Below, in pieces: positions 506 to 58,228 of a DNA stretch of 64,000 nucleotides (position 1 is its first letter; each line of letters starts with the position of its first letter). Under the pieces are notes generated by a model. It was not told the origin of the DNA, made no database searches, and saw only the letters and a list, made by a program, of their open reading frames with translations. The position numbers and the translations under genes were made by a program. This DNA is from an uncultured virus (IMG/VR IMGVR_UViG_3300017766_004071) (Duplodnaviria > Heunggongvirae > Uroviricota > Caudoviricetes), in IMG/VR virus record IMGVR_UViG_3300017766_004071, positions 1 to 64,000 of that record; one strand, written 5' to 3'.

Positions 506-582
506 AGTCCTGTGGCGGAAGGCACACGTGACCCCTCCTTAAGTGAAGGGGAAGTTTACAGGTTCGAATCCTGTCAGGACTA
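506..582 (+). ncRNA. tRNA-like scaffold RNA, copy 1
   Basis: Acceptor AGTCCTG/CAGGACT+A, T-arm ACAGG-TTCGAAT-CCTGT, degenerate D-arm, CCCCT/AGGGG hairpin with a 10-nt loop and no canonical anticodon loop. Confidence 0.75.
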
Positions 583-597
583 CAAAAATAAAATGAT

Positions 598-876
598 ATG
601 AAAAATAAAGAAAAATTAGAATATTGGTTTTGTAAAATAGGTCCTATTGATAGAAATAAAGTTCCATTTGGAGGTGATTGGCCATTAAGACGAGCAGTTG
701 AAGATAAGTTTATAGAAATGTTTGGTAAGCAAGCTGAAAGATGTTCTAGTGGATGGGGTTTAACAGAGGAAATGAAAACAAGATTAGATATTATTTCTTT
801 ATTAACTATTACTGATTCATCTGGAGATATATTAAAACAGATTGATGAAATCTTGAGTAAAAGACCTATGAACTAA
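598..876 (+). CDS. Hypothetical protein
   Basis: ORF track; lies between two tRNA-like RNAs. Confidence 0.7.
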   Translation: MKNKEKLEYWFCKIGPIDRNKVPFGGDWPLRRAVEDKFIEMFGKQAERCSSGWGLTEEMKTRLDIISLLTITDSSGDILKQIDEILSKRPMN

Positions 877-880
877 AAAT

Positions 881-972
881 AGTCCTGTGGCGGAATTGGT
901 AGACGCAAAAATAGAATATAGGTAAGGTCGTAACCCCTTCACAATTTACAGGTTCGAATCCTGTCAGGACTA
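881..972 (+). ncRNA. tRNA-like scaffold RNA, copy 2
   Basis: AGTCCTG-TG-GCGGAATTGGTAGACGC (Leu-type D-arm), about 40-nt insert without anticodon stem, same T-arm and CAGGACTA end. Confidence 0.8.
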
Positions 973-977
973 CAAAA

Positions 978-1087
978 AGTTAGGTTGGAAGTTGGTAATC
1001 CGCCGGAGGAAAGGAGTTCGTTTGGAGGAGTAAAATCTGAGAACAAATGATTATCTGAGAATACAGGTTCGAATCCTGTCCTAACTA
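978..1087 (+). ncRNA. tRNA-like scaffold RNA, copy 3 (covariant acceptor)
   Basis: Acceptor AGTTAGG/CCTAACT+A, D-like GGAAGTTGGTAATCC, about 60-nt insert, T-arm ACAGG-TTCGAAT-CCTGT. Confidence 0.75.
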
Positions 1088-1101
1088 CAAAAAATAAAAA
1101 T

Positions 1102-1320
1102 ATGAGTTACAAAGAAGAATTTTATAATAAAGTTGGTAAACTCCCAGTAAATGAACTTAAATCTTTTCTTGAAAAAGAAAATTATACATTTGATGACTTC
1201 AGAAAAGAATATCAAAGTTGGAAAGCTGAAGAAGAACGTTATAAAAAACGATTGGATAAATTAGATAAACCAAAACAAATTATAATCATTGAACCTAACA
1301 CAAATATATGTACAGATTAA
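1102..1320 (+). CDS. Hypothetical protein
   Basis: ORF track; A-rich leader. Confidence 0.65.
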   Translation: MSYKEEFYNKVGKLPVNELKSFLEKENYTFDDFRKEYQSWKAEEERYKKRLDKLDKPKQIIIIEPNTNICTD

Positions 1321-1559
1321 CCAGAGAAAGAGACAATAAAACCATAATAGGTGAACAAGTGATATTCATTGAATGGGATGAAGATGGAAGATTTTCCAAT
1401 AAACACGATGAACCAGCTGAAGGTAGGTCAGTTATGATTGACCCCCATCATTTCAGTTATACTTGGTTAACCACAGAAATTACCTCATTCACCAAAGATG
1501 GAAATAAATTAATATTTTCAACCAAAAACTCAAATTACATTTTGGAAATTGAGGATTAA
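1308..1559 (+). CDS. Hypothetical protein
   Basis: ORF track; overlaps upstream gene. Confidence 0.7.
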   Translation: MYRLTRERDNKTIIGEQVIFIEWDEDGRFSNKHDEPAEGRSVMIDPHHFSYTWLTTEITSFTKDGNKLIFSTKNSNYILEIED

Positions 1560-1571
1560 ATCATATCTTTG
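1541..1571 (+). promoter_or_regulatory. Bacteroidota-type promoter
   Basis: TTTG + 19 nt + TATCTTTG upstream of ATG 1593. Confidence 0.6.
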
Positions 1572-1592
1572 TCCTAACAAAAAAACACAATA

Positions 1593-1997
1593 ATGGAATT
1601 TATCACACACACTCAAGCTTTAGAACTGAAACAACTGGGATTCGATGAACTTTGTTGGGCTTGGTACAATATACCTGATGAAGATGTCAGATATTGTTAT
1701 TCAGAACAAAGAAGTCCAATTACAAATAGTCACGAAGAATGGAGTGCTCAAATTTGGGGTTCTAAGGTTGAGAACATTGGATTACCAACATCATCACAAG
1801 TCTTAAAATGGTTTCGTGAGAAATATGATTATTATTGTGAGATATTTGTAGATGATAATAAGACATTTGGTTTTTTAATCAGTTATTTTGTTGAAGATGG
1901 AAGAGCTGATAAACCTATACAAAGAGGATATAATTCTTATGAAGAAGCTGAAGATGCTTGTATATCCAAGTTAATTGAAGTAGTTAAACAAAAATAA
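1593..1997 (+). CDS. Hypothetical protein, tandem paralog 1 of 3
   Basis: QALELKQLGFDE..QVLKWFREKY..YEEAEDACI motifs shared with the next two ORFs. Confidence 0.85.
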   Translation: MEFITHTQALELKQLGFDELCWAWYNIPDEDVRYCYSEQRSPITNSHEEWSAQIWGSKVENIGLPTSSQVLKWFREKYDYYCEIFVDDNKTFGFLISYFVEDGRADKPIQRGYNSYEEAEDACISKLIEVVKQK

Positions 1998-1998
1998 T

Positions 1999-2382
1999 AT
2001 GAAAGATTTATTTATATCTTATGAGCAAGCTATTCAGTTAAAAGAACTTGGATTTGATGAACCTTGTCTATTTGGTTATAACCAAGATGATGAAAATAAA
2101 TTGATGACAGTACCTCAATTATCATCTTATGACATAAATTCAGCTAAAAATAGTGATGCGAGTAAAATTAATAAAGTTACAGCTCCACTCAAACAACAAG
2201 TTCTACGATGGTTCAGAGAGAAGTGTGAATTGCATGGGTATATTGAAGGAATGTATCCTTGGTGTAGATACTACATCAACTCAGAAGATGATAGGTGGGA
2301 GGGACATAAATACAATACGTATGAGGAATGCGAGAATTCCCTTACCAACAAATTAATTGAAATCGTTAAAAACAAACCATAA
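1999..2382 (+). CDS. Hypothetical protein, tandem paralog 2 of 3
   Basis: YEQAIQLKELGFDEPC..QQVLRWFREK. Confidence 0.85.
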   Translation: MKDLFISYEQAIQLKELGFDEPCLFGYNQDDENKLMTVPQLSSYDINSAKNSDASKINKVTAPLKQQVLRWFREKCELHGYIEGMYPWCRYYINSEDDRWEGHKYNTYEECENSLTNKLIEIVKNKP

Positions 2383-2777
2383 TGAAAGATTTATTTGTAT
2401 CTTACGAACAAGCACTCCAACTTAAAGAGTTGGGATTTAATGAACCTTGTTTAAAAGTTGGTAATCCAAATGGACATATTTTGTGGAAGTTTATGGATGT
2501 TCTTGATGTTGAAGGTGTTGACATTGGTGATATAATGAAAGAGAAGTTTGATGATAGGTTTGTTGAAATACCACTCAAACAACAGGTCTTCAAATGGTTC
2601 AGAGAGAAATATAATATCATTGGACTCATTGAAGGGGGTTTTGATATGACAAACATATTCACATATTGTATATGGGAGGGATTTAAAGATAAAATTTATG
2701 ATGATTATTATGGAACTTATGAGGAGGCTGAGGATGTTCTAATTAATATATTGATTGATAAAGTTAAAAACAAATAA
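2382..2777 (+). CDS. Hypothetical protein, tandem paralog 3 of 3
   Basis: YEQALQLKELGFNEPC..QQVFKWFREKY. Confidence 0.85.
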   Translation: MKDLFVSYEQALQLKELGFNEPCLKVGNPNGHILWKFMDVLDVEGVDIGDIMKEKFDDRFVEIPLKQQVFKWFREKYNIIGLIEGGFDMTNIFTYCIWEGFKDKIYDDYYGTYEEAEDVLINILIDKVKNK

Positions 2778-2778
2778 T

Positions 2779-3537
2779 ATGAAAAACATACACGTATTAC
2801 CAACAGACAAAGGAACAGGTAGTTTAGCTAAATCACCCAATACTAAGTATTATGTAGTTTCTGACCATAATAGAGGTATTTCTGACCATATAGATTATAA
2901 CATCTACATCACCAATGATGAGAATCCTAAAGCAGGGGAATGGTCACTATATCGAGGAAAAATACATAAATGTATTGAAAATATTGTTGGTGATGAATTT
3001 AAAAAAATCATCCTAACAACAGACCAAGACTTAATCAAAGATGGTGTACAAGCTATTGATGAAACATTCTTGGAGTGGTATGTAAAGAATCCAAGTTGTG
3101 AGGAGGTTGAAGTTGAAAAACAACGGATATGCGAAAATTGTGGTGTAGAAGATTGTAATAATTTTAGATGTAGAGGTTATGATAATGTTTTAAGATATGA
3201 AATTGTTTTTCCACAAGAAGAACCTAAACAAGAATGGAATCCAACACAAGGTGAAGAAGTTTGGATTAAAGTATTTTCAAATTGGTCAAAAGGAACTTAT
3301 ATTGGGTATGATGTAGCCAAACAGACCCACATAGTTAGAGAAGAAGAAAAAGGAGGAGGACATTTATTTTCAAGTACTGAAGTTTTACCTTACCACGCAA
3401 TGCCAAATGAACCTAAACAAGAAACATTGAAAAAAGTTGAAGAAAACATCGATAGAGAAGAATGGATACACTTTTTTAAAAATAATTCAAAAGAAGAAAT
3501 TTTAGAGTATTTAATTAATTATAAATTTCCATTATGA
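2779..3537 (+). CDS. Hypothetical phage protein (MKNIHVLPT..KIILTTDQDLI)
   Basis: ORF track 2755..3537; ATG 2779 just after the previous stop is the likelier start. Confidence 0.75.
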   Translation: MKNIHVLPTDKGTGSLAKSPNTKYYVVSDHNRGISDHIDYNIYITNDENPKAGEWSLYRGKIHKCIENIVGDEFKKIILTTDQDLIKDGVQAIDETFLEWYVKNPSCEEVEVEKQRICENCGVEDCNNFRCRGYDNVLRYEIVFPQEEPKQEWNPTQGEEVWIKVFSNWSKGTYIGYDVAKQTHIVREEEKGGGHLFSSTEVLPYHAMPNEPKQETLKKVEENIDREEWIHFFKNNSKEEILEYLINYKFPL

Positions 3538-4171: not shown

Positions 4172-4172
4172 T

Positions 4173-35000: not shown

Positions 35001-35073
35001 AGTTTTATATTTTTAAAATAAATACTAACAATCATAACAAATCTGATATTTATTATTGTTAATTTTTTTAAAA

Positions 35074-36834
35074 ATGTCATTCAAAGTTAAAAGAACTATT
35101 TACTTTTCATTTTTTATAATGTTTCTGTTCGTTATAATAAATCTTATTTCTCTTGTTTCACCAAAAGAGATATCAACTTATTTGAGTATTTTAGAAATTT
35201 TCAGTTTAATATTTTTATTTCCCTTATTCTGTTATTTAGGAAACGTTTACACCAGAAAACTAAAGTTAGTTACAAACCACAACAGATATTCAAACAAACT
35301 AAATGAATTAATAATTGAGGAGTCTCACAATCCATTATTCTACCAAGGTAATATAAATGAGGGTGGAAAACTTTTAACTAAAAAGATTTCTGAAGTACTA
35401 AATGTTGATAGAGTTTCAATTTGGTTATATGGTAAGAATAAAAGTTCCATAATTTGTAAACAATTATATATAAAAAACGATAAAATATGGGATGAAGGTA
35501 TTTTTTTAAATAAAAAAGATTTTTTACCATATTTTAATCATTTAGAAATTGACCCAATCATTGTTGCCAATAATGCTGAGAAACACGAAGCAACTTCTTG
35601 TTTTACTGAATCTTATTTAAGACCAAATAAAATAAAATCTATTTTAGATGTACCAATAATTTATCGTGGTGAAGTTATTGGAGTATTTTGTTTTGAGAAT
35701 TTAAAGGTAAGAGATTGGTTACAAATTGAAATAAATTTTGGACAAGTTATTGCGTCAATATATTCTTTTACATATTCAATTATGGAGACTAAAAAAGCAC
35801 AAGAAGAATTAAAAGAGTTTGAAAACTTTGTAGATAATTCAGTATTAGTTTCAAATGCGGATAAAAAAGGTAGGATAACTTATGTTAACAAAAGATTTGA
35901 AGAAGTTTCAGGGTGGAAAATGGGAGAAACCATAGGTAAAGACCACAATATTGTAAGTTCTAATTTACATCCAAAAGAATTTTGGAAAGAAATGTATAAT
36001 GTTGTAGTAAAACAGAAAAAAATATGGAATGATGTAATAACGAACAAAAGTAAAAATGGTGATTTGTATTGGGTTGATTCATTTATTAAAGCTGATTTTG
36101 ATGAAAAGGGTAATCTTAAAGGGTATCGTTCAATCAGATATGATGTAACCGAAATCATTAAACAAAATATTGAAATAGAGAAAAAGAACACCTATTTAGA
36201 GCATGCAGCAAAGATTCTAAGACACGATATGCACTCAGGTATCAATACATATATCCCTAGAGGAATTAATTCGTTAGAACGAAGATTAACTCCAGAACAA
36301 ATGGAGGAATTAAAAATAACCGCACCATTCAAAATGTTAAAGGATGGGTTGACACATACTCAAAAAGTGTATAATGGTGTTTATGAATTTACAAATTTAG
36401 TTAAAAAAGATTCAGTATTAAACGTCAAAAATTGCGACCTCAAGAAAATACTTGATAATTTCTTATCAACCACATCATACAAAAGTCAGGTTAAAATACA
36501 TTCATTAATTGAGAAAGAAGTAAATGAACCATTATTTTGTACAGCAATAGATAACTTAATTCGTAATGGATTAAAATATAATGATTCAAATACAAAGTTA
36601 GTGACAGTCCAAATGGAGGGTAATTATTTAATTATTCAGGATAATGGTCGAGGATTAACTCAAGAAGATTTTATAAAATATTCAAAACCATATTCAAGGA
36701 AGGAAGGACAAAAAGAAAGTGGAACTGGATTAGGTTTAAATATTTGTATTGCAATATTGAATGAACACGGATTTGAGGTTTCTTGTGAAAAAAATGAAAT
36801 AGGTACTAAATTCAAAATAAACTTAGAAAAATAA
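35074..36834 (+). CDS. Membrane sensor histidine kinase (TM-GAF-PAS-HisKA-HATPase)
   Basis: Two N-terminal TMs; GAF (DRVSIW..LDVPI); PAS (GRITYVN..YWVD); RHD H-box; NLIRNGLKY, DNGRG, GTGLGL. Confidence 0.9.
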   Translation: MSFKVKRTIYFSFFIMFLFVIINLISLVSPKEISTYLSILEIFSLIFLFPLFCYLGNVYTRKLKLVTNHNRYSNKLNELIIEESHNPLFYQGNINEGGKLLTKKISEVLNVDRVSIWLYGKNKSSIICKQLYIKNDKIWDEGIFLNKKDFLPYFNHLEIDPIIVANNAEKHEATSCFTESYLRPNKIKSILDVPIIYRGEVIGVFCFENLKVRDWLQIEINFGQVIASIYSFTYSIMETKKAQEELKEFENFVDNSVLVSNADKKGRITYVNKRFEEVSGWKMGETIGKDHNIVSSNLHPKEFWKEMYNVVVKQKKIWNDVITNKSKNGDLYWVDSFIKADFDEKGNLKGYRSIRYDVTEIIKQNIEIEKKNTYLEHAAKILRHDMHSGINTYIPRGINSLERRLTPEQMEELKITAPFKMLKDGLTHTQKVYNGVYEFTNLVKKDSVLNVKNCDLKKILDNFLSTTSYKSQVKIHSLIEKEVNEPLFCTAIDNLIRNGLKYNDSNTKLVTVQMEGNYLIIQDNGRGLTQEDFIKYSKPYSRKEGQKESGTGLGLNICIAILNEHGFEVSCEKNEIGTKFKINLEK

Positions 36835-36839: not shown

Positions 36840-37271
36840 ATGATTGAATCTTTAATGTTAATTGATGATGAGGACTTGTTCCATTTGGTGTTTGAAGATG
36901 CTTGTTCGTTATTGGATATAAGTTTGTCTTTAAAGGCATTGACGAGTTCTGATGAAGCCGCAAAACTATTTGAGAAGTGGCATAAAAATGGAGACAAGAA
37001 ACCTGAGTGTGTTTTTGTTGATTTAAATTTGATAGGTTCATCATTTGATGGTATTGAACTTATAAGAAAAATAAATTTTGAGTTTGGAAATCACGTTATT
37101 ATTGGGATAATATCATCATCCAATGAACCTGAAGAACAAACAAAAGCATTACAAGCTGGAGCTCAATTTTGGATTATTAAATCTGATGATATTGAACCTA
37201 GATTAGAATCGTTTAGACAAGATTATGAGGGATATAAAAATAGAACAGCCCCATTTAAAGTATACTCATGA
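36840..37271 (+). CDS. Single-domain response regulator
   Basis: LIDDE..VFVDLNL..DG..SSS..GA..IIK receiver motifs. Confidence 0.88.
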   Translation: MIESLMLIDDEDLFHLVFEDACSLLDISLSLKALTSSDEAAKLFEKWHKNGDKKPECVFVDLNLIGSSFDGIELIRKINFEFGNHVIIGIISSSNEPEEQTKALQAGAQFWIIKSDDIEPRLESFRQDYEGYKNRTAPFKVYS

Positions 37272-38146: not shown

Positions 38147-38980
38147 TTAAGCGATGTCTAGACTAAGTTTTTTTTGAAGATTAAGTTCATATGCTCTTGC
38201 CAATCTGGTCATACCACAACCCCAACCAAATCTTGGGAAGAAGTCCAAAGATAAGAAATCTTCCAAATCTTTTTCTACTCTTTCCTTACCAAATAATTCA
38301 AAAAGTTTTCCAGCGTAGTTTCCACCTTCAATTGTGTAGAACATTTCTTTCATACTTTCTTTATCACAACTTCTTTCTGCTGAACCAATAGTCTCTTGGC
38401 CAAATAATATTACGTCAACTTTGTTGAATTTGTCTCCATCACCTTTTTGCATATTCCAGAATGGGTTTGTTCGCAATGGAAAATTTTGAAGAGAAATTGA
38501 ATCACCGATTTCATCCCACATTTTTGTTTCGTGTTCAGCCTCAAGGATTTCTGTACCATAATGTTCACATAGTTGGTTATAATCAACAACTTTTGGTGTA
38601 TCAAAACCAAGATATTCCAGCATTTCAGCTTGAAGTTTAACCATATCTTCTTTAGTACCTTTAGTCTCAACCTCAAACATAGGAAAAATTAAATCATGTC
38701 TTCCAGGTATTGGTGTTTTCTCTTGTCTATATGATGTTGAGATACAATATACTCCAGGATATTCAGGATTTTTCAATAATTCGTACTCAAGCCACATCTG
38801 TCCAGTCTGCGGTAATGGCCAAACCTCATTAGAATACTCAAATGTTGTGATGCTATGTGGATTTTCACATGCGGCTAAGATAGAGAGTCTTGATTGAGTA
38901 GGTACTTCTAAGAAACCTTTAGCTTGGAAGAAGGTTCTCATTTTTTGAACCAATTCGTTGTAAATTTTAGTGTTTTTCAT
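38147..38980 (-). CDS. Class II aminoacyl-tRNA synthetase catalytic core (Asn/Asp/Lys subclass) without anticodon-binding domain
   Basis: RTFF..GFLEVPT (motif 1), SYRQE..RH..F.M.E (motif 2), ETIGSAER, GWGCGMTRL (motif 3); 277 aa. Confidence 0.85.
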   Translation of the reverse strand: MKNTKIYNELVQKMRTFFQAKGFLEVPTQSRLSILAACENPHSITTFEYSNEVWPLPQTGQMWLEYELLKNPEYPGVYCISTSYRQEKTPIPGRHDLIFPMFEVETKGTKEDMVKLQAEMLEYLGFDTPKVVDYNQLCEHYGTEILEAEHETKMWDEIGDSISLQNFPLRTNPFWNMQKGDGDKFNKVDVILFGQETIGSAERSCDKESMKEMFYTIEGGNYAGKLFELFGKERVEKDLEDFLSLDFFPRFGWGCGMTRLARAYELNLQKKLSLDIA

Positions 38981-39286: not shown

Positions 39287-41155
39287 ATGAGTAAAATTTT
39301 AGGAATTGACTTAGGTACGACAAATTCGTGCGTTGCAATTATGGAAAATGGTGAACCAGTGATTATCACCAATTCGGAAGGTAAACGAACTACCCCATCA
39401 ATTGTTGGATTTATTGATGGAGGGGAAAGAAAGATTGGAGACCCTGCTAAAAGACAATCTGTAACAAATCCAGACAAGACTGTGTATTCAATTAAACGAT
39501 TTATGGGCTCAAATTATGACGAAATCAAGTCTGAGGTTAAGAGAGTACCATATAATGTCGTAAAAGGGAAAAATAACACACCTAAAGTGAATATAGATGG
39601 TAAAGAATATTCCCCACAAGAAATATCTGCTATGGTATTACAGAAGATGAAACAAACCGCTGAGGATTATTTGGGTCAATCAGTAACTGAGGCAGTAATT
39701 ACCGTTCCAGCATACTTTAATGATGCTCAAAGACAAGCAACAAAGGAAGCTGGAGAGATTGCTGGGTTGAATGTAAGACGTATCATCAATGAACCAACGG
39801 CTGCAGCATTGGCTTATGGTCTTGATAAGAAGAACAAAGACTCAAAAATCGTTGTTTTTGACTGTGGTGGTGGTACTCATGACGTGTCTATCCTTGAATT
39901 GGGTGGGGGTGTATTTGAAGTATTGTCAACTGATGGTGATACACACCTTGGGGGTGATGATTTTGACCAAGCAATTGTAGATTGGTTAGCAAATGAATTT
40001 AAAAATGAAAATGGGGGATGGAATGATGATTCTATGTCATTACAACGACTAAAAGAAGCCGCAGAAAGGGCTAAAATTGAACTTTCATCATCTCAAAGTA
40101 CTGAAATCAACTTACCATACTTTATGGTCATTGATAACCAACCAAAACACCTTGTAAAAACACTTACAAGAGCCAAATTTGAACAATTGATTGACAAATT
40201 GGTTGAAAGAACTATTGAACCTTGTAAAAGAGCAATGTCAAGCGCAAATCTTACTATCGGAGAGATTGATGAGGTAATTTTAGTTGGAGGTTCAACAAGA
40301 ATACCCGCAATTCAAGAGGCTGTTAAGAAATTCTTCTGAAAAGAACCATCAAAAGGTGTAAATCCTGATGAAGTTGTTGCTTTGGGAGCAGCAATTCAGG
40401 GTGGTGTGTTAGCTGGTGACGTAAAAGATGTACTTTTATTGGATGTTACCCCACTTTCACTAGGAATTGAGACAATGGGTGGTGTATTTACAAAATTAAT
40501 TGAGGCAAACACCACAATTCCAACTAAAAAGTCTCAAATATTCTCAACTGCTATAGATAATCAACCATCTGTTGAAATTCACGTACTTCAAGGTGAGAGA
40601 GCAATGGCTAAAGATAACAAATCAATAGGTAGATTTCACTTGGATGGTATTCCACCATCAATGAGGGGTATTCCTCAAATCGAAGTTACATTTGACATTG
40701 ATTCAAATGGTATTATTAACGTATCAGCTCAAGACAAAGGTACAAATAAGAAACAAACAATTAGAATTGAGTCATCATCAGGTCTTTCTCAAGATGAAAT
40801 TGATAGAATGAAACGTGAAGCTGAAGAAAATGCCGAATCCGATAAGGTTTTGAAAGAAAAAGCTGAAAAAATAAATGAAGCTGACTCAACAATCTTCAAT
40901 ATTGAAAAAGCTTTGAAAGATTTGGATGAAAAAATGAACGAAGAAGAAAAAGAAACAATAAAATCTGAATTGGAACTATTAAAAGAAGCTAAAAATTCAG
41001 GTGATGTCCAATCAATTGATAAAGCATTGGATAATGTAAACATCAAAATGCAAGAAGTAACCCAAAAAATATATGGGAATGTTGGGGAACAATTTAATAA
41101 CCCTGATAATTTTACAGGTTCTGATGTTGAATTTGAAGAAGTTAAGAGTAACTAA
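39287..41155 (+). pseudogene. dnaK: Hsp70 chaperone DnaK, full length but with one in-frame TGA at 40337-40339
   Basis: [36 protein letters not shown]; reads [22 protein letters not shown] where DnaK has FFGKEP. Confidence 0.92.
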
Positions 41156-53210: not shown

Positions 53211-53216
53211 AAAAAT

Positions 53217-53591: not shown

Positions 53592-53595
53592 AATT

Positions 53596-53868: not shown

Positions 53869-53877
53869 TCAAAACCC

Positions 53878-53906
53878 TTGACAAACCAAAGTATTAATTA
53901 TATACT
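53878..53906 (+). promoter_or_regulatory. Sigma70-like promoter
   Basis: TTGACA-17 nt-TATACT upstream of ATG 53935. Confidence 0.5.
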
Positions 53907-53934
53907 TTCAAAACAAATTCAAAAACAGAATATT

Positions 53935-55338
53935 ATGAACTTCTTAGACGCATTACAAACAGAAGATACCTTAACTGAAAATGGTATGGTTACAAATTCA
54001 TCAACTCTTAACGAGTGTGTGAATCTATTCTTCACCATTGGAGCAATGAGAGGACAAGACAAAGAAAGATTGTTAAGTCTATTCTCAAAGGCTTTCATTG
54101 AGAATCCTCAGACTGCATTGCGTATATTATTTTGGGCAAGAGATGTTCGTGGTGGTGCTGGTGAAAGACAAATATTCCGTGATATAATCCAACTCTTAGC
54201 AGAGGTGGCACCAGAAGTATTGGCGAAGAATATTAAATTCATTCCTGAATTCGGTCGTTGGGACGATATTACAGTCCTATTCAATACAAAAGTGAATGAC
54301 GATGCGATTAACACAATAGTACAAGGTTTAGAAGCCAAAAATGGACTATGTGCAAAGTGGATGCCAAGAAAAGGAGTTATTTTTAACTCAATCAGGAAGG
54401 TTATGGGTCTTACACCAAAAACATTACGTAAAATGTTGGTAGTTCTTTCCAAAACGGTCGAGCAAAAGATGTGTGCTAACGAGTGGACAAATATTGAATA
54501 CTCAAAAGTACCATCTTTGGCTATGGCTCGATACACCAAAGCATTCTCTAAACACGATTTAACTGGTTTTGGAGTATACTTGGAATCATTGAAAAAAGGT
54601 GAGACTAAAGTAAACGCTGGGGCTGTATATCCATATGATATAGTTAAAACTTTGGGGCAAGGTGTCAAAGATTTGGCTGTAGAACAATGGAAAGCTCTTC
54701 CCAACTTTATGGAAGGAAGTACCGAAAGAATTTTACCAGTAGTTGATGTATCAGGTTCAATGTCTACTAGTGCTGGTAACAACAATAATCTATCTTGTAT
54801 GGATGTTGCAGTATCATTGGGATTGTACATTTCAGAAAGAAATGAAGGTTCTTTTAAAGACTCTTTCATTACATTCTCTGAGAGACCAAAATTACAAAAG
54901 TTGAGTGGTAATCTATATAATAGATACATACAACTACGTACTGCTGATTGGGGTATGAGTACAAACTTGGAGTCTGTGTTCAAATTGATTCTAAACCAAT
55001 CAATTAAACATAATGTACCTCAAAGTGAAATGCCGACCAAAATCCTTATCTTATCGGATATGGAATTTAATCAAGCAACTGGACGTAATAATTCCGCAAT
55101 TCAAATGATTCGTAAAGAATATGAGAATAGTGGATATCAACTACCTGGTATTATCTTTTGGAACATACAATCGAGAGGAGATAACTTCCCAGTTCGTTTT
55201 GATGAAAGTGGTACAGCGTTAATATCTGGTTTTAGTCCATCAATCTTGAAGTCAATTCTTGGGGGAAAAGAACTATCACCAATATTAATTATGAATGAAA
55301 CCATCGAGTCCGAAAGATATAAGATGATAGAAGTTTAA
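53935..55338 (+). CDS. DUF2828-family (TROVE/Ro60-related) protein with C-terminal vWA domain
   Basis: TENG..LFF..ARDVRGGAGER..GRWDD..AKWMPR; MIDAS DVSGSM, STN, LSDMEF, IFWN, SGFSP. Confidence 0.85.
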   Translation: MNFLDALQTEDTLTENGMVTNSSTLNECVNLFFTIGAMRGQDKERLLSLFSKAFIENPQTALRILFWARDVRGGAGERQIFRDIIQLLAEVAPEVLAKNIKFIPEFGRWDDITVLFNTKVNDDAINTIVQGLEAKNGLCAKWMPRKGVIFNSIRKVMGLTPKTLRKMLVVLSKTVEQKMCANEWTNIEYSKVPSLAMARYTKAFSKHDLTGFGVYLESLKKGETKVNAGAVYPYDIVKTLGQGVKDLAVEQWKALPNFMEGSTERILPVVDVSGSMSTSAGNNNNLSCMDVAVSLGLYISERNEGSFKDSFITFSERPKLQKLSGNLYNRYIQLRTADWGMSTNLESVFKLILNQSIKHNVPQSEMPTKILILSDMEFNQATGRNNSAIQMIRKEYENSGYQLPGIIFWNIQSRGDNFPVRFDESGTALISGFSPSILKSILGGKELSPILIMNETIESERYKMIEV

Positions 55339-55344
55339 AAAAAT

Positions 55345-55714
55345 GGAAAAATTGGTTTAAAAGGAATGATTACTGCAAAGTTAACACAACAAATCAATTA
55401 ATCAAAATGGTAGCCGAGGATAGGTTCAAACCCTGTCACCCTCTGATAAGGAGGGGGGTTAGTCTCACTTTCCTAATCGCACGGGAATAAATTACTAACC
55501 AAAACCCATTCTGAAACCAATTTTTCCTATTTTTTCTTGACTTAATGAAACTTTTAAATTAATTTTACGTTATATAGAACAAAGGATAGATTCAGCAAAC
55601 TAAAAAAATCAAAACTTGTAAATTTGAACAAAAACTATCCTGACAATTAAGGTTATAACGAATGACTTCAGCAACTTAAAAAAGACAGCACATCTTAAAA
55701 AATCATTCCGAACC
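55345..55714 (+). ncRNA. Three stem-loop RNAs with C[A/T]GCAA motif directly downstream of the DUF2828 gene
   Basis: Units 55345-55527, 55583-55642 and 55651-55714; each is a 5' stem arm, then C[A/T]GCAA, an A-rich variable loop and the complementary arm. Confidence 0.6.
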
Positions 55715-55758
55715 AAACTTTTTAATAATTTAGTAATATTTATAAACAAATAACAAAA

Positions 55759-55854
55759 ATGAGAACATCGATAAACCATATTAGTAATTCAGTACAACCG
55801 CAATTTAAAAATTGTTGGTCAGCGGATTCTTATGGTTCAGGTGGAATCTCGTGA
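55759..55854 (+). CDS. 31-aa putative leader peptide
   Basis: MRTSINHISNSVQPQFKNCWSADSYGSGGIS; TATTTAT upstream, terminator downstream. Confidence 0.4.
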   Translation: MRTSINHISNSVQPQFKNCWSADSYGSGGIS

Positions 55855-55882
55855 TGGTAAAAAAGATATTAATTTTTTATAC

Positions 55883-55915
55883 AAACCCTGGACAAAAGAC
55901 GTTCAGGGTTTTTTT
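55883..55915 (+). terminator. Intrinsic terminator ahead of the tRNA cluster
   Basis: AAACCCTGGAC..GTTCAGGGTTT followed by a T-run. Confidence 0.65.
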
Positions 55916-55945
55916 GTGTTCTTTGACATCGTTGGTAAAATATAA

Positions 55946-56018
55946 TCCCCCTTGGTATAAAGGTTGATTACATCAGATTTTGAATCTGAGGATGGTGGTT
56001 CAATTCCATCAGGGGGAA
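55946..56018 (+). tRNA. trnQ: tRNA-Gln(TTG)
   Basis: TCCCCCT/AGGGGGA acceptor; TCAGA-TT TTG AA-TCTGA; TTCAATT loop. Confidence 0.88.
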
Positions 56019-56060
56019 CAATTTAAAGTGGTGAAATTTGACCACTTTAAAAAAAATATC

Positions 56061-56105
56061 AAATCTTGGAACTAATAGAACTTAAGGTTGGTTCATATAG
56101 ATGAA
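56061..56105 (+). promoter_or_regulatory. Two-box repeat, ECF-sigma-like promoter, copy 1
   Basis: AAATCTTGGAACTAA-N14-GGTTCATATAGATGAA; second copy at 57434-57478. Confidence 0.5.
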
Positions 56106-56136
56106 AGTTGATTATTAAATTTTAAAATAAAAAATT

Positions 56137-56412
56137 ATGGAACTAGTAAGAAAGGGGGAATCGAGATGTTATGTATTCCGTGAAGAAGACATCCAAAAGG
56201 TATATGATACCATCAAAGAAATTGATAATTTTGAATTTGATTATATGCCTAATAATTGGGTAACAGTTTTCAATAGTAAAGACGTACATAAAAACTATAT
56301 GGTATATAATGGTAAATTTGACATTGATGTACCTAAACTGATTGACGAGTGTGGTAAAAGGGGTGTAGGTATCATTGTTAGGTCTACTAATATTCAAGAT
56401 GATTGTTGGTAA
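56137..56412 (+). CDS. Hypothetical protein
   Basis: ORF track. Confidence 0.7.
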   Translation: MELVRKGESRCYVFREEDIQKVYDTIKEIDNFEFDYMPNNWVTVFNSKDVHKNYMVYNGKFDIDVPKLIDECGKRGVGIIVRSTNIQDDCW

Positions 56413-56466
56413 AAAAAACTTGATAAAACATTTGGAAATAAGAATATAGTGTCGTAATTTTGTGGA

Positions 56467-56532
56467 AGAGTAAGGAAAGGTCGTAGGTAGCACTGTCCAC
56501 AACCAGCCTTAAACGTGGTGGATACTTACTCT
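56467..56532 (+). ncRNA. Small structured RNA with possible pseudoknot
   Basis: Promoter at 56431-56462; AGAGTAAG/CTTACTCT stem, AAGG/CCTT inner stem, TCCAC/GTGGA pairing. Confidence 0.45.
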
Positions 56533-56562
56533 AAATTTTTTCAAACTTAAAATATTAATTTT

Positions 56563-56754
56563 ATGACTAAAAATCAAATTTTAAATCTTGAAGTTGGGGA
56601 TGTTATTCCAAATATGTTTGGTAAACTAAAAAAAGTCACAAGAATTTTACATAAAGGAACTGACATTAATGGAAAAATGTTTGTTTATTTTTACCAAGAA
56701 TTTGGGGATAGTAGTGAAATGTCTTCAACTTTAAAAGAAGGTAATCAAATATAA
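56563..56754 (+). CDS. Hypothetical protein
   Basis: ORF track. Confidence 0.6.
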   Translation: MTKNQILNLEVGDVIPNMFGKLKKVTRILHKGTDINGKMFVYFYQEFGDSSEMSSTLKEGNQI

Positions 56755-56759
56755 ATTAT

Positions 56760-56835
56760 GGTGGGATTGCCAAGTTGGTCAAGGCGAATAGCTGAAGATT
56801 ATTTAATGTAGGTTCGATTCCTACTCCCACCACCA
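56760..56835 (+). tRNA. trnF: tRNA-Phe(GAA), encoded CCA
   Basis: GGTGGGA/TCCCACC; AATAG-CT GAA GA-TTATT. Confidence 0.88.
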
Positions 56836-56850
56836 AACAACTATAAGACA

Positions 56851-57021
56851 ATGAGAAGCAAAACCGTAGATAGATTGCTGAAAAGCACACCGAAAGATGT
56901 AGAAATCTTTGTGGATTGGTATGCCGACCTGGTGGTTCGCATCAATCAGCTATTGCGTGAAAACGACATCAGCAAAAAGGAACTCGCAGAGAAGATGGAC
57001 AAAAAACCATCTGAAATTTAG
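56851..57021 (+). pseudogene. Truncated XRE/HigA-type HTH gene fragment
   Basis: MRSKTVDRLL..RINQLLRENDISKKELAEKMDKKPSEI*KW stops inside the recognition helix; visibly higher GC. Confidence 0.65.
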
Positions 57022-57034
57022 AAATGGATTATAT

Positions 57035-57107
57035 GAGGTATGAACCCAAATGGAGAGGGACAACATTGTGGATGTTGGTTTAGTGAGTTCGATTCTCATC
57101 ATACCTA
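57035..57107 (+). tRNA. trnH: tRNA-His(GTG)
   Basis: G-1, AGGTATG/CATACCT; CAACA-TT GTG GA-TGTTG. Confidence 0.85.
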
Positions 57108-57119
57108 CTTAAACAAATT

Positions 57120-57206
57120 GGAAAGTTAAGCTCGGCGGCCCGAGTCTACGTCTTGAAAACGATAGGTACAATTGTATTGTATGGGGCTCGACACCTCAGC
57201 TTTCCG
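57120..57206 (+). tRNA. trnS: tRNA-Ser(TGA), atypical
   Basis: GGAAAGT/GCTTTCC+G; loop CT TGA AA; long variable arm; bulged A in the anticodon stem. Confidence 0.75.
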
Positions 57207-57215
57207 CAAATATTT

Positions 57216-57288
57216 AGTCCCATAGTTCAATGGATTAGAACCGAACAATACGAATGTTCAAATACCCGTTCAAATCGGGTTGGGACTA
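57216..57288 (+). tRNA. trnR: tRNA-Arg(ACG)
   Basis: AGTCCCA/TGGGACT; GAACA-AT ACG AA-TGTTC. Confidence 0.85.
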
Positions 57289-57296
57289 CAAAACTC

Positions 57297-57419
57297 AGTC
57301 TTGTGGCGGAATGGTAGACGCAGCTGTGATAACTTCGCTGGAAGGTGAATCTCCTTTAAAATATTAGCAGGGTCAATCAGTTCTCAGTTATCGTATAGGT
57401 TCAAATCCTATCAAGACTA
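57297..57419 (+). ncRNA. tRNA-like scaffold RNA, copy 4
   Basis: AGTCTTG/CAAGACT+A, GCGGAATGGTAGACGC, insert closed by GATAACT/AGTTATC, T-arm ATAGG-TTCAAAT-CCTAT. Confidence 0.8.
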
Positions 57420-57433
57420 CAAAAAAAAATTTT

Positions 57434-57478
57434 AAATCTTGGAACTAAATGGTGAGAGAAGGGGTTTATGTAAATGAA
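57434..57478 (+). promoter_or_regulatory. Two-box repeat, ECF-sigma-like promoter, copy 2
   Basis: AAATCTTGGAACTAA-N14-GGTTTATGTAAATGAA just upstream of tRNA-Ser(GCT). Confidence 0.5.
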
Positions 57479-57491
57479 TTTAGAAACAATT

Positions 57492-57578
57492 GGAGGATAA
57501 AGTAATCAGGGTCGTTACCACCGCCTGCTAAGCGAGTGGCACCAAGTATGGTGTGGGGTTCGTGTCCTCTGTCCTCCG
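57492..57578 (+). tRNA. trnS: tRNA-Ser(GCT), atypical
   Basis: GGAGGAT/GTCCTCC+G; loop CT GCT AA; variable arm CACCA/TGGTG; bulged A in the anticodon stem. Confidence 0.78.
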
Positions 57579-57737
57579 CAAAAAAATATTAATAAGATTA
57601 GAGCAGTTGAGTTCATAACTCAAAGGAATGCAGACAGTGGAGATGAGCGACCCACCTAATCATTTTAAATGAATAAAAAAATATTCCAAAGTGTTTGGAA
57701 ATTAGAAAATGAAATCGTAATTTTGTGATACAATAAT

Positions 57738-57885
57738 AGTCCTGTGGCGGAATTGGTAGACGCTATTAAGATAACTAAGGCAGTATATTTTCTCGGAGTA
57801 AATATGCAAAGTCATAGTGTTGTACAGATTATCCGAGTGACGAGTACATGCTTAATTTTTACAGGTTCGAATCCTGTCAGGACTA
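57738..57885 (+). ncRNA. tRNA-like scaffold RNA, copy 5
   Basis: Own Bacteroidota promoter at 57694-57725; ends identical to copy 2; about 95-nt insert closed by ATTAAG/CTTAAT. Confidence 0.8.
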
Positions 57886-58098
57886 CAAAAAATTAAAAAA
57901 TAAAAGTTATGGACACACATTATTGGGTAAGATTTGAGATTAGAATTGAAACTATCAACAATCAATTAACTTCTGATGAACAAAAAGAAATCTTTGACTA
58001 TATAAAATCAAGAATTGACGGTAGAGATGACATAGATAGACCTAAAAAGTTGGATTGTTGTTTTGTCAATATGAGGAAATTTTAGATAAGTTAAATCA

Positions 58099-58228
58099 AG
58101 TCCTGTGGCGAAAGCTAAGGGTAGAGTGAAGATTGAATGTTCAGACACTCCTTAATACTAGGATTGGAGCGAAAGGTCTAACATAAACAATATGTAGCTT
58201 AATACGGGTTCGAATCCTGTCAGGACTA
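58099..58228 (+). ncRNA. tRNA-like scaffold RNA, copy 6 (D-arm lost)
   Basis: AGTCCTGTGGCG..insert closed by AAGCTA/TAGCTT..ACGGG-TTCGAAT-CCTGT-CAGGACTA. Confidence 0.72.

What the first reader, a model, noticed from the sequence alone, without database searches (positions are those of the whole stretch)
506..58228. Family of six tRNA-scaffold RNAs with variable inserts replacing the anticodon arm
Seen: six elements (506-582, 881-972, 978-1087, 57297-57419, 57738-57885, 58099-58228) share the acceptor stem AGTCCTG/CAGGACT+A and a perfect T-arm, and most keep a Leu-type D-arm GCGGAATTGGTAGACGC. The middle is unrelated between copies (total length 77-148 nt) and never forms a 7-nt anticodon loop. 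Copies 3 and 4 show compensatory changes (AGTTAGG/CCTAACT, AGTCTTG/CAAGACT, ATAGG/CCTAT), which argues for selection on structure rather than decay. Several inserts are closed by their own stem. Copies 1 and 5 sit behind near-identical promoters, and four copies are directly followed by a small ORF. Established: the acceptor/T/D elbow is what RNase P, RNase Z and the CCA enzyme read, and most bacterial LeuRS ignores the anticodon. Inference: a constant-scaffold, variable-cargo RNA system. It could be stabilised guide/antisense RNAs, decoys for tRNA-targeting defences, Y-RNA-like partners of the DUF2828 protein, or tRNA punctuation for mRNA processing.
Basis: partly seen in the sequence, partly recalled or inferred. 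Interest (0 to 1): 0.9.

Follow-up and report, generated by a model that had tools for sequence, protein, structure and literature searches.

The report
Phage tRNA-framed RNAs with swappable inserts
A large freshwater phage carries genes for small RNAs that keep the outer frame of a leucine tRNA but hold a different folded insert where the anticodon arm should be; they belong to a big phage-only RNA family whose job is still unknown.

Summary
The six elements are real and sit at the stated coordinates. Three more lie beyond the window in the same 75.7-kb phage record. All keep a 7-bp acceptor stem, A73 and a T arm, and most keep a tRNA-Leu D arm.

They belong to a large family:
- 197 distinct elements came from IMG/VR and metagenomes; 133 have the Leu D arm and measure 69-212 nt.
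- Their middles fall into 158 unrelated clusters.
- ARAGORN of the 133.

Acceptor and T stems covary. Some cargos are better conserved than their flanks (e6, 79/79) and show compensatory changes and pseudoknots. At one syntenic site the cargo is exchanged exactly between the scaffold halves.

The inserts match no Rfam family (no group I intron), cannot be excised to give an anticodon arm (0 of 63), and are not antisense to the contig.

Best reading: these are small RNAs matured through the tRNA frame, with the cargo as the working part and the target unknown. The neighbouring DUF2828 protein folds like Ro60, but 0 of 6 near-complete records of this frame have it. Closest known are T5 RNA1/RNA2 and T4 species 1/2. 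This scan met the family before on other DNA.

The parts
466..496 (+). Promoter-like site TTTG-N19-TAATTTTG, 9 nt upstream of e1
   Evidence: Regex scan. Near-identical sites lie before e5 and e7. That this is the Bacteroidota -33/-7 consensus is recalled knowledge, not a tool result.
506..582 (+). e1, 77 nt. Scaffold with altered D arm (GCGGAAGGCACACGT), a 7-nt loop CTTAAGT on a stem with one mismatch, and no long variable arm. It is the only tRNA-like decoder candidate among the six.
   Evidence: ARAGORN tRNA-Leu(taa). Rfam tRNA 40.4 bits. Own model R1 49.6 bits. 76 of 77 bases identical in G002.
881..972 (+). e2, 92 nt. Exact Leu D arm, 41-nt middle without an anticodon arm.
   Evidence: Rfam tRNA 41.0 bits with the middle skipped. 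R1 81.8 bits. Not called by ARAGORN.
978..1087 (+). e3, 110 nt. Acceptor AGTTAGG/CCTAACT (compensatory), 3-bp D stem GGA/TCC, 59-nt middle. It starts 5 nt after e2.
   Evidence: Rfam tRNA only 17.8 bits. R1 46.4 bits. The same element occurs in IMG/VR locus L102.
57297..57419 (+). e4, 123 nt. Acceptor AGTCTTG/CAAGACT and T stem ATAGG/CCTAT (both compensatory). The cargo is closed by GATAACT/AGTTATC.
   Evidence: Rfam tRNA 41.4 bits. R1 65.3 bits. Cargo 95.8% against flanks 92.8% identical to G002.
57694..57725 (+). Promoter-like site TTTG-N20-TAATTTTG, 12 nt upstream of e5
57738..57885 (+). e5, 148 nt. Exact Leu D arm. The 97-nt cargo is closed by ATTAAG/CTTAAT and followed by TTTT and the T arm.
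   Evidence: R1 62.3 bits. An ortholog in another record (L098) has 2 changes in the cargo, a 3-nt deletion in the D loop and 1 change in the D stem.
58099..58228 (+). e6, 130 nt. The D arm is reduced to GGCGAAAGC, which fits the Y-RNA motif GNCGAAN0-1G. 79-nt cargo, T-run trailer.
   Evidence: R1 48.2 bits. Cargo 79/79 identical in G001, G002 and G003 while the 150-nt flanks are 89-96% identical and the T stem changed with compensation (ACGGG/CCTGT to ACAAG/CTTGT).
598..876 (+). Small ORF (92 aa) starting 15 nt after e1. Similar ORFs follow e3 (1102-1320), e5 (57909-58085) and e6 (58256-58468).
   Evidence: No Pfam or PHROG family. Across the family the downstream ORFs are unrelated (95 clusters among 107 ORFs).
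53878..55338 (+). Context, not shown to be part of the system: a Ro60-like protein (DUF2828 + DUF7788/vWA) just upstream of the tRNA cluster.
   Evidence: Pfam. AlphaFold2 pLDDT 75. The top 13 Foldseek PDB hits are all Ro60/TROVE, best E 4e-8, TM 0.53.

Best explanation
These are genes for small, non-decoding RNAs built on a tRNA-Leu frame.

Shown: each element keeps the 7-bp acceptor stem, discriminator A73, T arm, U8, A14, A15, G18G19 and, in at least 90% of an aligned set, the U just before the T stem. The region that holds the anticodon and variable arms in a tRNA is occupied by one of more than 150 unrelated, mostly folded 'cargo' modules. Cargos can be exchanged between copies exactly at the scaffold borders.

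Inferred: the RNA is transcribed either from its own host-type promoter or within the tRNA array. It is then cut at the 5' end by RNase P and at the 3' end after A73, and given CCA like the neighbouring true tRNAs. It is probably leucylated, because bacterial LeuRS reads A73 and the tertiary core rather than the anticodon (recalled knowledge). This would make it a stable, tRNA-protected molecule.

The working part is the cargo. It most likely binds a host or phage protein, RNA or small ligand early in infection, in host takeover or counter-defence. The target is unknown. Confidence that this is a tRNA-Leu-framed variable-cargo RNA family under selection is about 0.9. Confidence that the cargo acts in trans as the functional part is about 0.45.
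For: Scaffold under selection:
- Among 197 distinct elements there are 24 acceptor variants, many changed on both strands (AGTCAGG/CCTGACT 111, AGTCCTG/CAGGACT 38, AGTTAGG/CCTAACT, AGTCTTG/CAAGACT, GGTCAAG/CTTGACT, AGTCCTA/TAGGACT and others), plus the T-stem variant ATAGG/CCTAT.
- In 35 non-redundant members, 22 cells changed on both sides against 5.8 in shuffles (0 of 500 reach it). Slid controls pair at 27-38%.

Not decoders:
- ARAGORN of 133 Leu-type members, several of them with odd loops.

Cargo matters:
- The e6 cargo is 79/79 identical in three relatives whose flanks are 89-96% identical.
- The e9 cargo is 54 of 66 alignment columns identical to a copy in a different scaffold subtype (L120), with ATGG/CCAT changed to ATGA/TCAT and a GAAA-to-TACG loop swap on a kept stem.
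- One cargo class forms an H-type pseudoknot with 96.8% paired cells and 3 pairs changed on both sides (covariation 0.104 against 0.061; 3 of 500 shuffles reach it).
- Cargo folding z averages -0.70 against -0.15 for flanks (n=80 each, Mann-Whitney p=4e-4).

Modularity:
- At the e7 site, G000 and G002 are more than 98% identical on both sides, including promoter and scaffold, but the cargo differs completely between GACGCT and ACAGG.
- Chimeras exist (L090, L116).

Expression signals:
- Consensus promoter-like sites lie directly before e1, e5 and e7.
- 8 of 9 elements and 15 of 22 true tRNAs of the contig share a 'CA...' trailer without encoded CCA.

Distribution:
- The exact 3' end occurs in 57 IMG/VR loci and at least 128 metagenome stretches, but in only one contig of 185,579 species genomes, and that contig has the same length as an IMG/VR viral record.
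- Near-complete phages of 36-115 kb carry 1-3 copies; this clade carries 8-13 model hits per fragment.

RNA library:
- One metatranscriptome contig (X23, 219 nt, no differences) spans all of e8 unspliced. Such libraries can hold DNA, so this is weak.
Against: - No target was found. Cargos are not complementary to the own 75.7-kb contig above shuffles or to their own flanks, and match no Rfam family.
- 128 of 158 cargo clusters are singletons. For most cargos there is therefore no evidence of constraint, and the diversity could partly be drift.
- The folding signal is modest. The covariation sets are small (5 sequences).
- The 35 sequences were picked by a script that demanded a fully paired acceptor, so their 100% pairing is by construction.
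- Decay is seen. Of 30 distinct 3' ends without a perfect 5' partner, about 10 are cut by contig ends, about 13 have one acceptor mismatch, 2 are chimeras and the rest have no partner. Some T loops carry an extra base (L083, L089, L119), and L084 is a deletion scar.
- Processing, CCA addition, leucylation and stability were not tested here.
- Contigs cannot show RNA ends.
Confidence: 0.5

Rival explanations
1. The scaffold is the function. The RNAs act as anticodon-less tRNA-Leu look-alikes that soak up or deflect something that reads the upper half of a tRNA. Candidates are a tRNA-targeting host nuclease or toxin, LeuRS, EF-Tu, RNase P/Z or the CCA enzyme. The middle only has to be 'not an anticodon arm'.
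For: The scaffold is the constant part, with near-identical halves across many phage lineages. The Leu identity-type features are kept. There are many copies per genome in this clade. Cargo diversity is extreme, with 128 singletons. Very short members of 52-60 nt exist, with almost no middle.
Against: Some cargos are conserved more strongly than their flanks and their own scaffold (e6). Cargos show compensatory changes and loop swaps and persist across scaffold subtypes (e9 cargo in three frames). Cargos of 100-160 nt cost genome space in 36-46 kb phages that carry only 1-3 copies.
Confidence: 0.2
2. tRNA punctuation. The elements serve mainly as RNase P/Z cutting signals that separate and set the 5' ends of the downstream small-gene mRNAs, and the cargo is a passenger.
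For: 107 of 197 elements have an ATG ORF starting within 90 nt downstream. Most start 13-29 nt away behind an A-rich spacer, and the ORFs are unrelated (95 clusters). Four of the six window elements are followed this way.
Against: True tRNAs in the same compact clusters have the same spacing (for example tRNA-Phe 56760-56835 to the ORF at 56851), so the pattern is not specific. A minimal acceptor-T hairpin would be enough. Cargo conservation and covariation are not explained. e1, e5 and e7 are the first thing behind their own promoters, where there is no upstream message to separate.
Confidence: 0.1
3. Y-RNA-like partners of the phage's Ro60-like (DUF2828) protein. The tRNA-like RNAs would gate or tether this ring protein, perhaps to host PNPase, as shown for bacterial Y RNAs and for Thermus phage phiLo Yrl1/Yrl2.
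For: The DUF2828/DUF7788 protein folds like Ro60: the top 13 PDB hits are all Ro60, including the phage phiLo protein, at E 4e-8. Its gene lies just upstream of the cluster in G000-G003, G008, G018 and G031. [quoted passage not shown] Phage phiLo Ro60 binds two neighbouring Y-like RNAs (PMC12135203, passages). e6 carries GGCGAAAG, which fits the GNCGAAN0-1G motif, next to its terminal stem, and has a strongly conserved cargo.
Against: 0 of 6 records at least 90% complete that carry this frame encode DUF2828 (G006, G012, G013, G016; G033, G034). G013 holds only an ordinary tRNA of the frame. Rfam YrlA and Y_RNA give no match on the nine elements; the best elsewhere is 33.5 bits against a cut-off of 69. 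The motif is not enriched in cargos (4 of 197 against 3.8 in shuffles). The ends lie in the acceptor stem, not in an anticodon-side Ro-binding stem as in YrlA. All the Ro60-positive records except G031 are close relatives, so co-occurrence is not independent.
Confidence: 0.12
4. Decaying duplicates of phage tRNA-Leu genes (pseudogenes) made by recombination among clustered tRNA genes.
For: There is a gradient from near-normal (e1, e7, e8 keep anticodon-like loops) to fully altered copies. e8 and a G002 element hold an inner second T-arm hairpin, as expected from illegitimate recombination. Broken copies and chimeras exist.
Against: Scaffold halves stay intact and covary while the middles are unrelated. 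Some copies have their own consensus promoters. There is cargo conservation and covariation. The family is spread over many phage lineages, including small near-complete genomes where these are the only tRNA-like genes in 10-kb surroundings.
Confidence: 0.05
5. Interrupted tRNA-Leu genes. The inserts are introns that are removed to give working tRNAs.
For: The Lak megaphage paper reports phage tRNAs with 'enigmatic introns' (PMC6784885, passages). A true group I intron sits in the ordinary tRNA-Leu(UAA) of relative G001 (62.3 bits). ARAGORN in intron mode proposes introns for e4, e5, e7 and e8.
Against: No element matches the group I model or any ribozyme family, although the method did find the G001 intron. 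0 of 63 non-redundant cargo-bearing members can give a 5-bp stem plus a 7-nt loop with U33 after one excision (shuffled mean 0.5). ARAGORN's intron-mode isotypes (Tyr, Val, Pro) do not fit the Leu frame. An RNA-library contig spans e8 unspliced (weak). The excision test did not cover products with a long variable arm.
Confidence: 0.03

Closest known systems
Phage T5 RNA1, RNA2, RNA3 (NC_005859: 30501-30644, 32959-33083, 33877-33949), annotated 'tRNA-like stable RNA with unknown functions'
   Same: They lie in the phage tRNA gene region among small ORFs. RNA1 (144 nt) has a Leu-type D arm (CCGGAATTGGTAGACGG), a T arm and an insert of about 80 nt in between. RNA2 (125 nt) has the T arm GCAGGTTCGAATCCTGT, an 8-bp terminal stem and an inner T-arm-like hairpin like e8 (my reading of the sequence). 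The full-length family model R1 matches RNA1 at 25.5 bits (E 2.6e-4); RNA2 matches over 81 nt (L275 2668-2748) at 17.7 bits. Function is unknown there too.
   Different: There is no sequence kinship beyond generic tRNA features: T5's true tRNA-Leu scores the same (27.6 bits). RNA1's acceptor pairs at only 6 of 7 positions by my reading. T5 has single copies, and no family of interchangeable cargos has been described for it.
Phage T4 species 1 and species 2 RNAs (rnaC, rnaD; NC_000866 70908-71171)
   Same: They are small stable RNAs encoded at the end of the T4 tRNA cluster. rnaC ends in a T arm CCGGGTTCGAATCCCGG and matches R1 at 21.9 bits. Their function has stayed unknown for decades (recalled).
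   Different: The terminal stem of rnaC pairs at only 5 of 7 positions by my reading. There is no Leu-type D arm and no variable-cargo family.
Bacterial class II tRNA-Leu (Rfam RF00005)
   Same: Acceptor stem, A73, D arm GCGGAATTGGTAGACGC and T arm. e1, e2 and e4 pass the Rfam cut-off. The contig's true tRNA-Leu(tag) and tRNA-Leu(taa) score 46.3 and 40.3 bits with R1.
   Different: There is no anticodon arm in 5 of the 6 window elements and in 115 of 133 family members by ARAGORN. The start is A1-U72. The exact frame was found in only one contig of the 185,579 species genomes, most likely a viral contig binned into a MAG.
YrlA / Y-RNA-like RNAs with Ro60 (Rfam RF02553; phage phiLo Yrl1/Yrl2)
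   Same: tRNA-like D/T/acceptor mimicry. A Ro60-like gene lies next to the cluster in this phage clade.
   Different: The topology differs, because here the ends are in the acceptor stem. The Rfam model does not match. The motif is absent except in e6. Most element-bearing phages lack the protein.
tmRNA
   Same: A tRNA-like acceptor/T domain with the anticodon arm replaced by a pseudoknot-rich domain. It is charged by a synthetase that ignores the anticodon.
   Different: ARAGORN's tmRNA search finds none. Position 3-70 is U-A, not G.U. No tag reading frame was looked for beyond ARAGORN. The cargos are unrelated to each other.
Engineered 'tRNA scaffold' for expressing recombinant RNAs (recalled; no call)
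   Same: The design principle is the same: cargo placed in the anticodon-arm position so that the cell's tRNA enzymes process and protect it.
   Different: That scaffold is man-made. The natural family uses a Leu frame and was not known to me from the literature.
'Enigmatic introns' in tRNAs of Lak megaphages (PMC6784885)
   Same: Over-long phage tRNA genes that standard bacterial tRNA finders cannot classify (passages).
   Different: There the remainder forms a typed tRNA, for example Tyr(GTA) or Thr(TGT). Here no anticodon arm can be rebuilt. I did not compare the Lak sequences themselves, and that paper's supplementary tables were not opened.

Membership tests
Canonical tRNA (RF00005) | 7-bp acceptor stem with a discriminator base, and a T arm with the TTCRAnT loop | tested here: met
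   All six window elements and e7-e9.
Canonical tRNA (RF00005) | Anticodon arm: 5-bp stem and 7-nt loop with U33 | tested here: not met
   Only e1 has it, with one C.A mismatch. e2-e6 lack it. Across the family ARAGORN of 133.
Canonical tRNA (RF00005) | Score at or above the Rfam gathering cut-off (29 bits) | tested here: inconclusive
   e1 40.4, e2 41.0 and e4 41.4 pass. e3 17.8 and e5 20.7 fail, and e6 gives no match. The passes arise by local skipping of the middle.
Phage tRNA-like stable RNAs (T5 RNA1/2/3, T4 species 1/2) | Encoded within the phage tRNA gene cluster, tRNA-like ends, no decoding arm | tested here: met
Phage tRNA-like stable RNAs (T5 RNA1/2/3, T4 species 1/2) | Accumulates as a discrete stable RNA in infected cells | not testable with these tools
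   Only assembled contigs of two RNA libraries were available. They cannot show ends or levels.
Phage tRNA-like stable RNAs (T5 RNA1/2/3, T4 species 1/2) | Sequence or model kinship with the T5/T4 RNAs | tested here: inconclusive
   R1 gives T5 RNA1 25.5, T4 rnaC 21.9 and T5 RNA2 17.7 bits, no better than those phages' true tRNA-Leu (27.6, 28.4).
YrlA / Y RNA | Match to Rfam RF02553 or RF00019 | tested here: not met
   No match on the elements at E up to 10. The best elsewhere in the family is 33.5 bits against a cut-off of 69.
YrlA / Y RNA | GNCGAAN0-1G motif in the loop beside the terminal stem | tested here: not met
   Present only in e6. In cargos 4 of 197, against 3.8 in shuffles.
YrlA / Y RNA | Encoded beside a Ro60 gene | tested here: inconclusive
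   True in this clade, but 0 of 6 near-complete records with the frame have the gene.
tRNA gene with group I intron | Match to RF00028 inside the gene, with exons that rebuild a tRNA | tested here: not met
   No match in any element. Positive control: the G001 tRNA-Leu(UAA) intron at 62.3 bits.
tRNA gene with a small (protein-spliced type) intron | Removal of one segment restores a 5-bp stem and a 7-nt loop next to the D and T arms | tested here: not met
   0 of 63, with a shuffled mean of 0.5. Products with a long variable arm were not covered.
tmRNA | Detected by ARAGORN's tmRNA search; G3.U70 alanine identity | tested here: not met
   No tmRNA found. Position 3-70 is T-A in all 35 aligned members.

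The most novel reading that the evidence does not exclude
Phages keep a natural 'plug-in' RNA expression system. A leucine-tRNA frame lets host enzymes cut out, tail, charge and protect any folded RNA placed in the anticodon slot (and sometimes the D-loop slot). The two short conserved frame halves double as homology arms, through which cargos are traded between copies and between phages. The cargos would be a fast-evolving library of aptamer-like binders or sponges aimed at host defence proteins, nucleases or signalling nucleotides. This would also explain the long-unexplained T4 and T5 stable RNAs.
Probability: 0.25. Interest if true: 0.9.

Novelty: new variant of a known kind. Interest (0 to 1): 0.7.

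Why it matters
- tRNA-like stable RNAs of T4 and T5 have lacked a function since they were sequenced. This family offers hundreds of natural variants, a clear modular anatomy and syntenic cargo swaps, so the question becomes testable by comparing cargos, hosts and defence systems.
- If the frame works as inferred, it is a natural counterpart of the engineered tRNA scaffold and a source of stable RNA modules.
- Such genes are missed or mislabelled by tRNA finders: ARAGORN of 133. Phage 'tRNA counts' and intergenic annotations in metagenomes are therefore affected.

Tried and rejected
1. Antisense targets. The longest complementary matches of each cargo to the own 75.7-kb contig were 10-12 nt, and 66-193 of 200 shuffles reached as much. 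The first script timed out.
2. Cis pairing with flanks. The cargo-flank duplex energy (-11.4 downstream, -12.7 upstream) is no better than with permuted partners.
3. Known RNA families in cargos. Only tRNA hits in the window, in three relatives and in 20 long-cargo loci.
4. Intron reading.
5. Partner proteins. The DUF2828/Ro60-like protein and the class II aaRS-like core at 38147-38980 are confined to this clade plus a few fragments. Both score 0 among near-complete smaller phages.
6. A common downstream gene: none. In four related smaller phages an endolysin-type gene follows within 0.03-0.7 kb, but this looks like shared ancestry.
7. Cultured phages. No record in the phage collection holds both frame halves of this family. 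One look-alike with a different frame was found, unannotated, in Enterococcus phage EFP01 (R1 24.6 bits).
8. Host genomes. The exact 3' end is absent from 185,579 species genomes except for one contig.
9. RNA evidence. The two metatranscriptome runs hold 6-7% of the sampled words as contigs. They can show neither ends, levels nor absence of cover, and DNA carry-over is possible.
10. Records behind metagenome loci could not be searched.
11. Literature. Searches turned up no paper describing this Leu-framed variable-cargo family. Fremin et al. 2023 (PMC10690425, passages) mention tRNA-like candidates in IMG/VR only in general terms. Subscription-journal papers on the T5 and T4 RNAs are not in the library.

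Full report
**What the window is.** The window is the first 64,000 bases of a 75,704-base IMG/VR virus record. CheckV rates it 27% complete, which implies a phage of roughly 260-280 kb. A T9SS sorting-domain protein at 62076-63413 and promoter-like sites of the form TTTG-N19/20-TAnnTTTG point to a Bacteroidota host; that this is the Bacteroidota consensus is recalled. Runs holding the sequence are labelled freshwater or lake metagenomes.

**Checking the observation.**
- All six elements are at the stated coordinates.
- The shared 3' end matches 8 places in the window, against 0.01 expected by chance.
- The whole record has nine copies, all on one strand. The extra three are e7 at 66541-66633, e8 at 70290-70435 and e9 at 70537-70650.
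- One statement is wrong. e1 does have a 7-nt loop with anticodon TAA, and ARAGORN calls it tRNA-Leu.
- Rfam's tRNA model passes e1, e2 and e4 by skipping their middles. It fails e3 and e5, and finds nothing in e6.
- The contig also has ordinary, unrelated tRNA-Leu(taa) and tRNA-Leu(tag) genes.

**Size of the family.**
- The exact 22-nt 3' end occurs in 57 IMG/VR loci.
- In 185,579 species genomes it occurs only in one contig binned into a MAG, and that contig has the length of an IMG/VR viral contig.
- From all loci a script extracted 197 distinct elements with a fully paired acceptor. It set aside 34 3' ends without a perfect 5' partner. These are 30 distinct cases: about 10 cut by contig ends, about 13 with one mismatch, 2 chimeras, and the rest with no partner.
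- 133 elements have the Leu-type D arm and measure 69-212 nt.
- Their middles fall into 158 clusters, of which 128 are singletons.
- ARAGORN of the 133, several with 6- or 8-nt loops or stop anticodons.
- Three close relatives (G001-G003) carry 8, 10 and 6 pattern matches.
- A covariance model of the frame (R1) scores the nine own elements at 46-82 bits.
- R1 finds 1-3 copies in near-complete phages of 36-115 kb.

**Evidence for selection on the frame.**
- There are 24 acceptor variants, many changed on both strands, and T-stem variants such as ATAGG/CCTAT.
- On 35 non-redundant members, 22 cells changed on both sides against 5.8 in shuffles, and slid controls pair at only 27-38%.
- These 35 were pre-selected for a paired acceptor, so only the covariation counts here, not the pairing percentage.
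- T8, A14, A15 and the GG of the D loop are invariant. The T just before the T stem is kept in at least 90% of members, although it abuts the variable part.
- 8 of 9 elements and 15 of 22 true tRNAs of the contig have a 'CA...' trailer and no encoded CCA. This suggests the same end-processing route.

**Evidence about the cargo.**
- Some cargos are clearly constrained. The e6 cargo is 79/79 identical in G001-G003 while its flanks are 89-96% identical and its T stem changed with compensation.
- The e9 cargo recurs in a copy with another acceptor, an altered T loop and a 39-nt D-loop insert (L120). It is identical at 54 of 66 alignment columns, with a compensated stem and a GAAA-to-TACG loop swap.
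- One cargo class of five sequences forms an H-type pseudoknot with 96.8% paired cells and three doubly changed pairs. By eye, two other classes have the same a-b-a'-b' order.
- Cargos fold somewhat better than shuffles and flanks.
- Cargos are also exchanged. At the e7 site, G000 and G002 are more than 98% identical through promoter, frame halves and downstream sequence, yet the 42-nt and 56-nt cargos are unrelated.
- e8 evolves faster than its flanks, but with two doubly compensated pairs in its anticodon-like stem.

**What the inserts are not.**
- They are not group I introns or any Rfam family. The same search did find a true group I intron in the ordinary tRNA-Leu(UAA) of G001.
- They are not removable so as to restore an anticodon arm: 0 of 63.
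- They are not antisense to the phage's available 75.7 kb or to their own flanks.
- A 219-nt contig from an RNA library spans e8 unspliced. This is weak, since DNA can be present in such libraries.

**The Ro60 lead.**
- The DUF2828/DUF7788 protein at 53878-55338 gives an AlphaFold2 model (pLDDT 75) whose 13 best PDB matches are all Ro60, led by the Thermus phage phiLo protein.
- That protein binds neighbouring Y-like RNAs (PMC12135203, passages), and bacterial YrlA RNAs mimic tRNAs (PMC4201824, passages).
- The gene accompanies the cluster in this clade and in G031. It is absent from all 6 records at least 90% complete that carry the frame.
- YrlA models and the Y-RNA motif do not fit, except that e6 has GGCGAAAG beside its terminal stem.
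- I therefore treat Ro60 partnership as possible for e6 only.

**How it most likely works.**
- Shown: the anatomy, the selection on the frame, the constraint on some cargos and the modular exchange.
- Inferred: transcription from host-type promoters or within the tRNA array, then 5' cutting by RNase P, 3' cutting after A73 and CCA addition as for the neighbouring tRNAs.
- Also inferred: probable leucylation, because bacterial LeuRS reads A73 and the tertiary core and tolerates loss of the anticodon and variable arms (recalled, not tested).
- The result would be a stable carrier that presents the cargo. I think the cargo acts in trans on host or phage factors, but the target is unknown.

**Comparison with what is known.**
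- The T5 record annotates RNA1, RNA2 and RNA3 as tRNA-like stable RNAs of unknown function inside its tRNA region.
- By my reading, RNA1 has a Leu-type D arm, a T arm and an insert of about 80 nt. RNA2 has this family's T-arm sequence and an inner T-arm-like hairpin.
- T4 rnaC and rnaD are the species 1 and 2 stable RNAs.
- R1 scores these RNAs no higher than those phages' true tRNA-Leu. They are analogues in build, not shown relatives.
- An unannotated element of the same build sits in Enterococcus phage EFP01.
- Earlier notes of this scan describe the same family on other DNA and gave me the T5, T4, YrlA and Lak leads. I checked those leads myself.
- My literature searches found no paper on a Leu-framed variable-cargo family. 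Older subscription papers are outside the library.

**Verdict.** This is a real, selected, phage-only RNA gene family: a new variant of a known but unexplained kind. Its function is open, and its modular anatomy makes it testable.

Noticed in passing
window 53878-55338 (+): The DUF2828+DUF7788 protein is a Ro60/TROVE+vWA look-alike. The AF2 model has pLDDT 75, and the top 13 PDB matches are all Ro60, the best being Thermus phage phiLo Ro60 (E 4e-8). The family is very large: more than 8000 relatives at E<=1e-10.
   Followed up: yes
window 55395-55500 (+): About 60 nt after the Ro60-like gene there is a conserved structured stretch: a T-arm-like hairpin (ATAGGTTCAAACCCTGT), a hairpin with a 7-nt loop and a long hairpin. 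It is kept in G002 and G003 with a compensated change, and has no Rfam match. It may be this protein's own Y-like RNA.
   Followed up: partly
window 60127-60212, 60720-60806; own contig 65677-65768, 67640-67726, 69381-69466, 70864-70952: Ordinary-looking tRNAs for Val, Cys, Gln, Met, Thr and Arg(TCT) are 86-92 nt long and carry a long extra arm, which is unusual for these isotypes.
   Followed up: no
window 58891-58967 and 58981-59057 (+): Two paralogous 77-nt tRNA-like genes have a good acceptor and T arm but no normal D arm. Their acceptors differ by compensated changes. Rfam tRNA scores are 28.6 and 31.1 bits.
   Followed up: no
own contig 66541-66633 (e7) and 70290-70435 (e8), beyond the window: e7 has an 8-nt anticodon-like loop, which ARAGORN reads as a 4-base anticodon caag. 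e8 keeps a CAA loop with G at position 33 and holds a second, inner T-arm hairpin.
   Followed up: partly
L067 9890-10175 (relative G001): The ordinary tRNA-Leu(UAA) of G001 is split by a group I intron (RF00028, 62.3 bits) in the anticodon loop. The G000 ortholog at 66174-66258 has none.
   Followed up: yes
L067 11273-11333; L068 5727-5787: Matches to the Rfam 'freshwater-1' RNA motif at 58.9 bits, below its cut-off of 72, inside the tRNA clusters of G001 and G002.
   Followed up: no
window 39287-40339 and 40382-41155 (+): An Hsp70/DnaK gene appears as two adjacent ORFs covering profile positions 1-350 and 366-598, with a 42-nt gap.
   Followed up: no
window 38147-38980 (-): A class II aminoacyl-tRNA-synthetase-like catalytic core (277 aa; weak AsnRS/AspRS/EpmA similarity) without an anticodon-binding domain. 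It is present in G001-G003, G008, G020 and G027 but in none of the four near-complete smaller phages searched.
   Followed up: partly
window 35056-36834 and 36840-37271 (+): A phage-borne GAF-PAS histidine kinase followed by a response-regulator receiver protein.
   Followed up: no
L274 402-531 (Enterococcus phage EFP01, record 111568-111697): An unannotated element of about 130 nt with a 7-bp acceptor, a Leu-type D arm, a T arm with the loop TGCAAAT and an insert of about 77 nt. ARAGORN finds nothing; R1 gives 24.6 bits.
   Followed up: partly
L120 (IMG/VR locus), minus strand: A copy of the e9-type element carries an additional 39-nt hairpin inside its D loop, so the frame has a second insertion slot.
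   Followed up: partly
L013, L014, L030, L039, L053, L056, L059 and others: 91-93-nt tRNAs with the same acceptor/T frame have anticodon TAT and a long variable arm. Their anticodon stem covaries.
   Followed up: no
window 598-876 (+): The small ORF after e1 is 72% identical in DNA over 256 nt to a hypothetical gene of a Leptolyngbya cyanophage.
   Followed up: no
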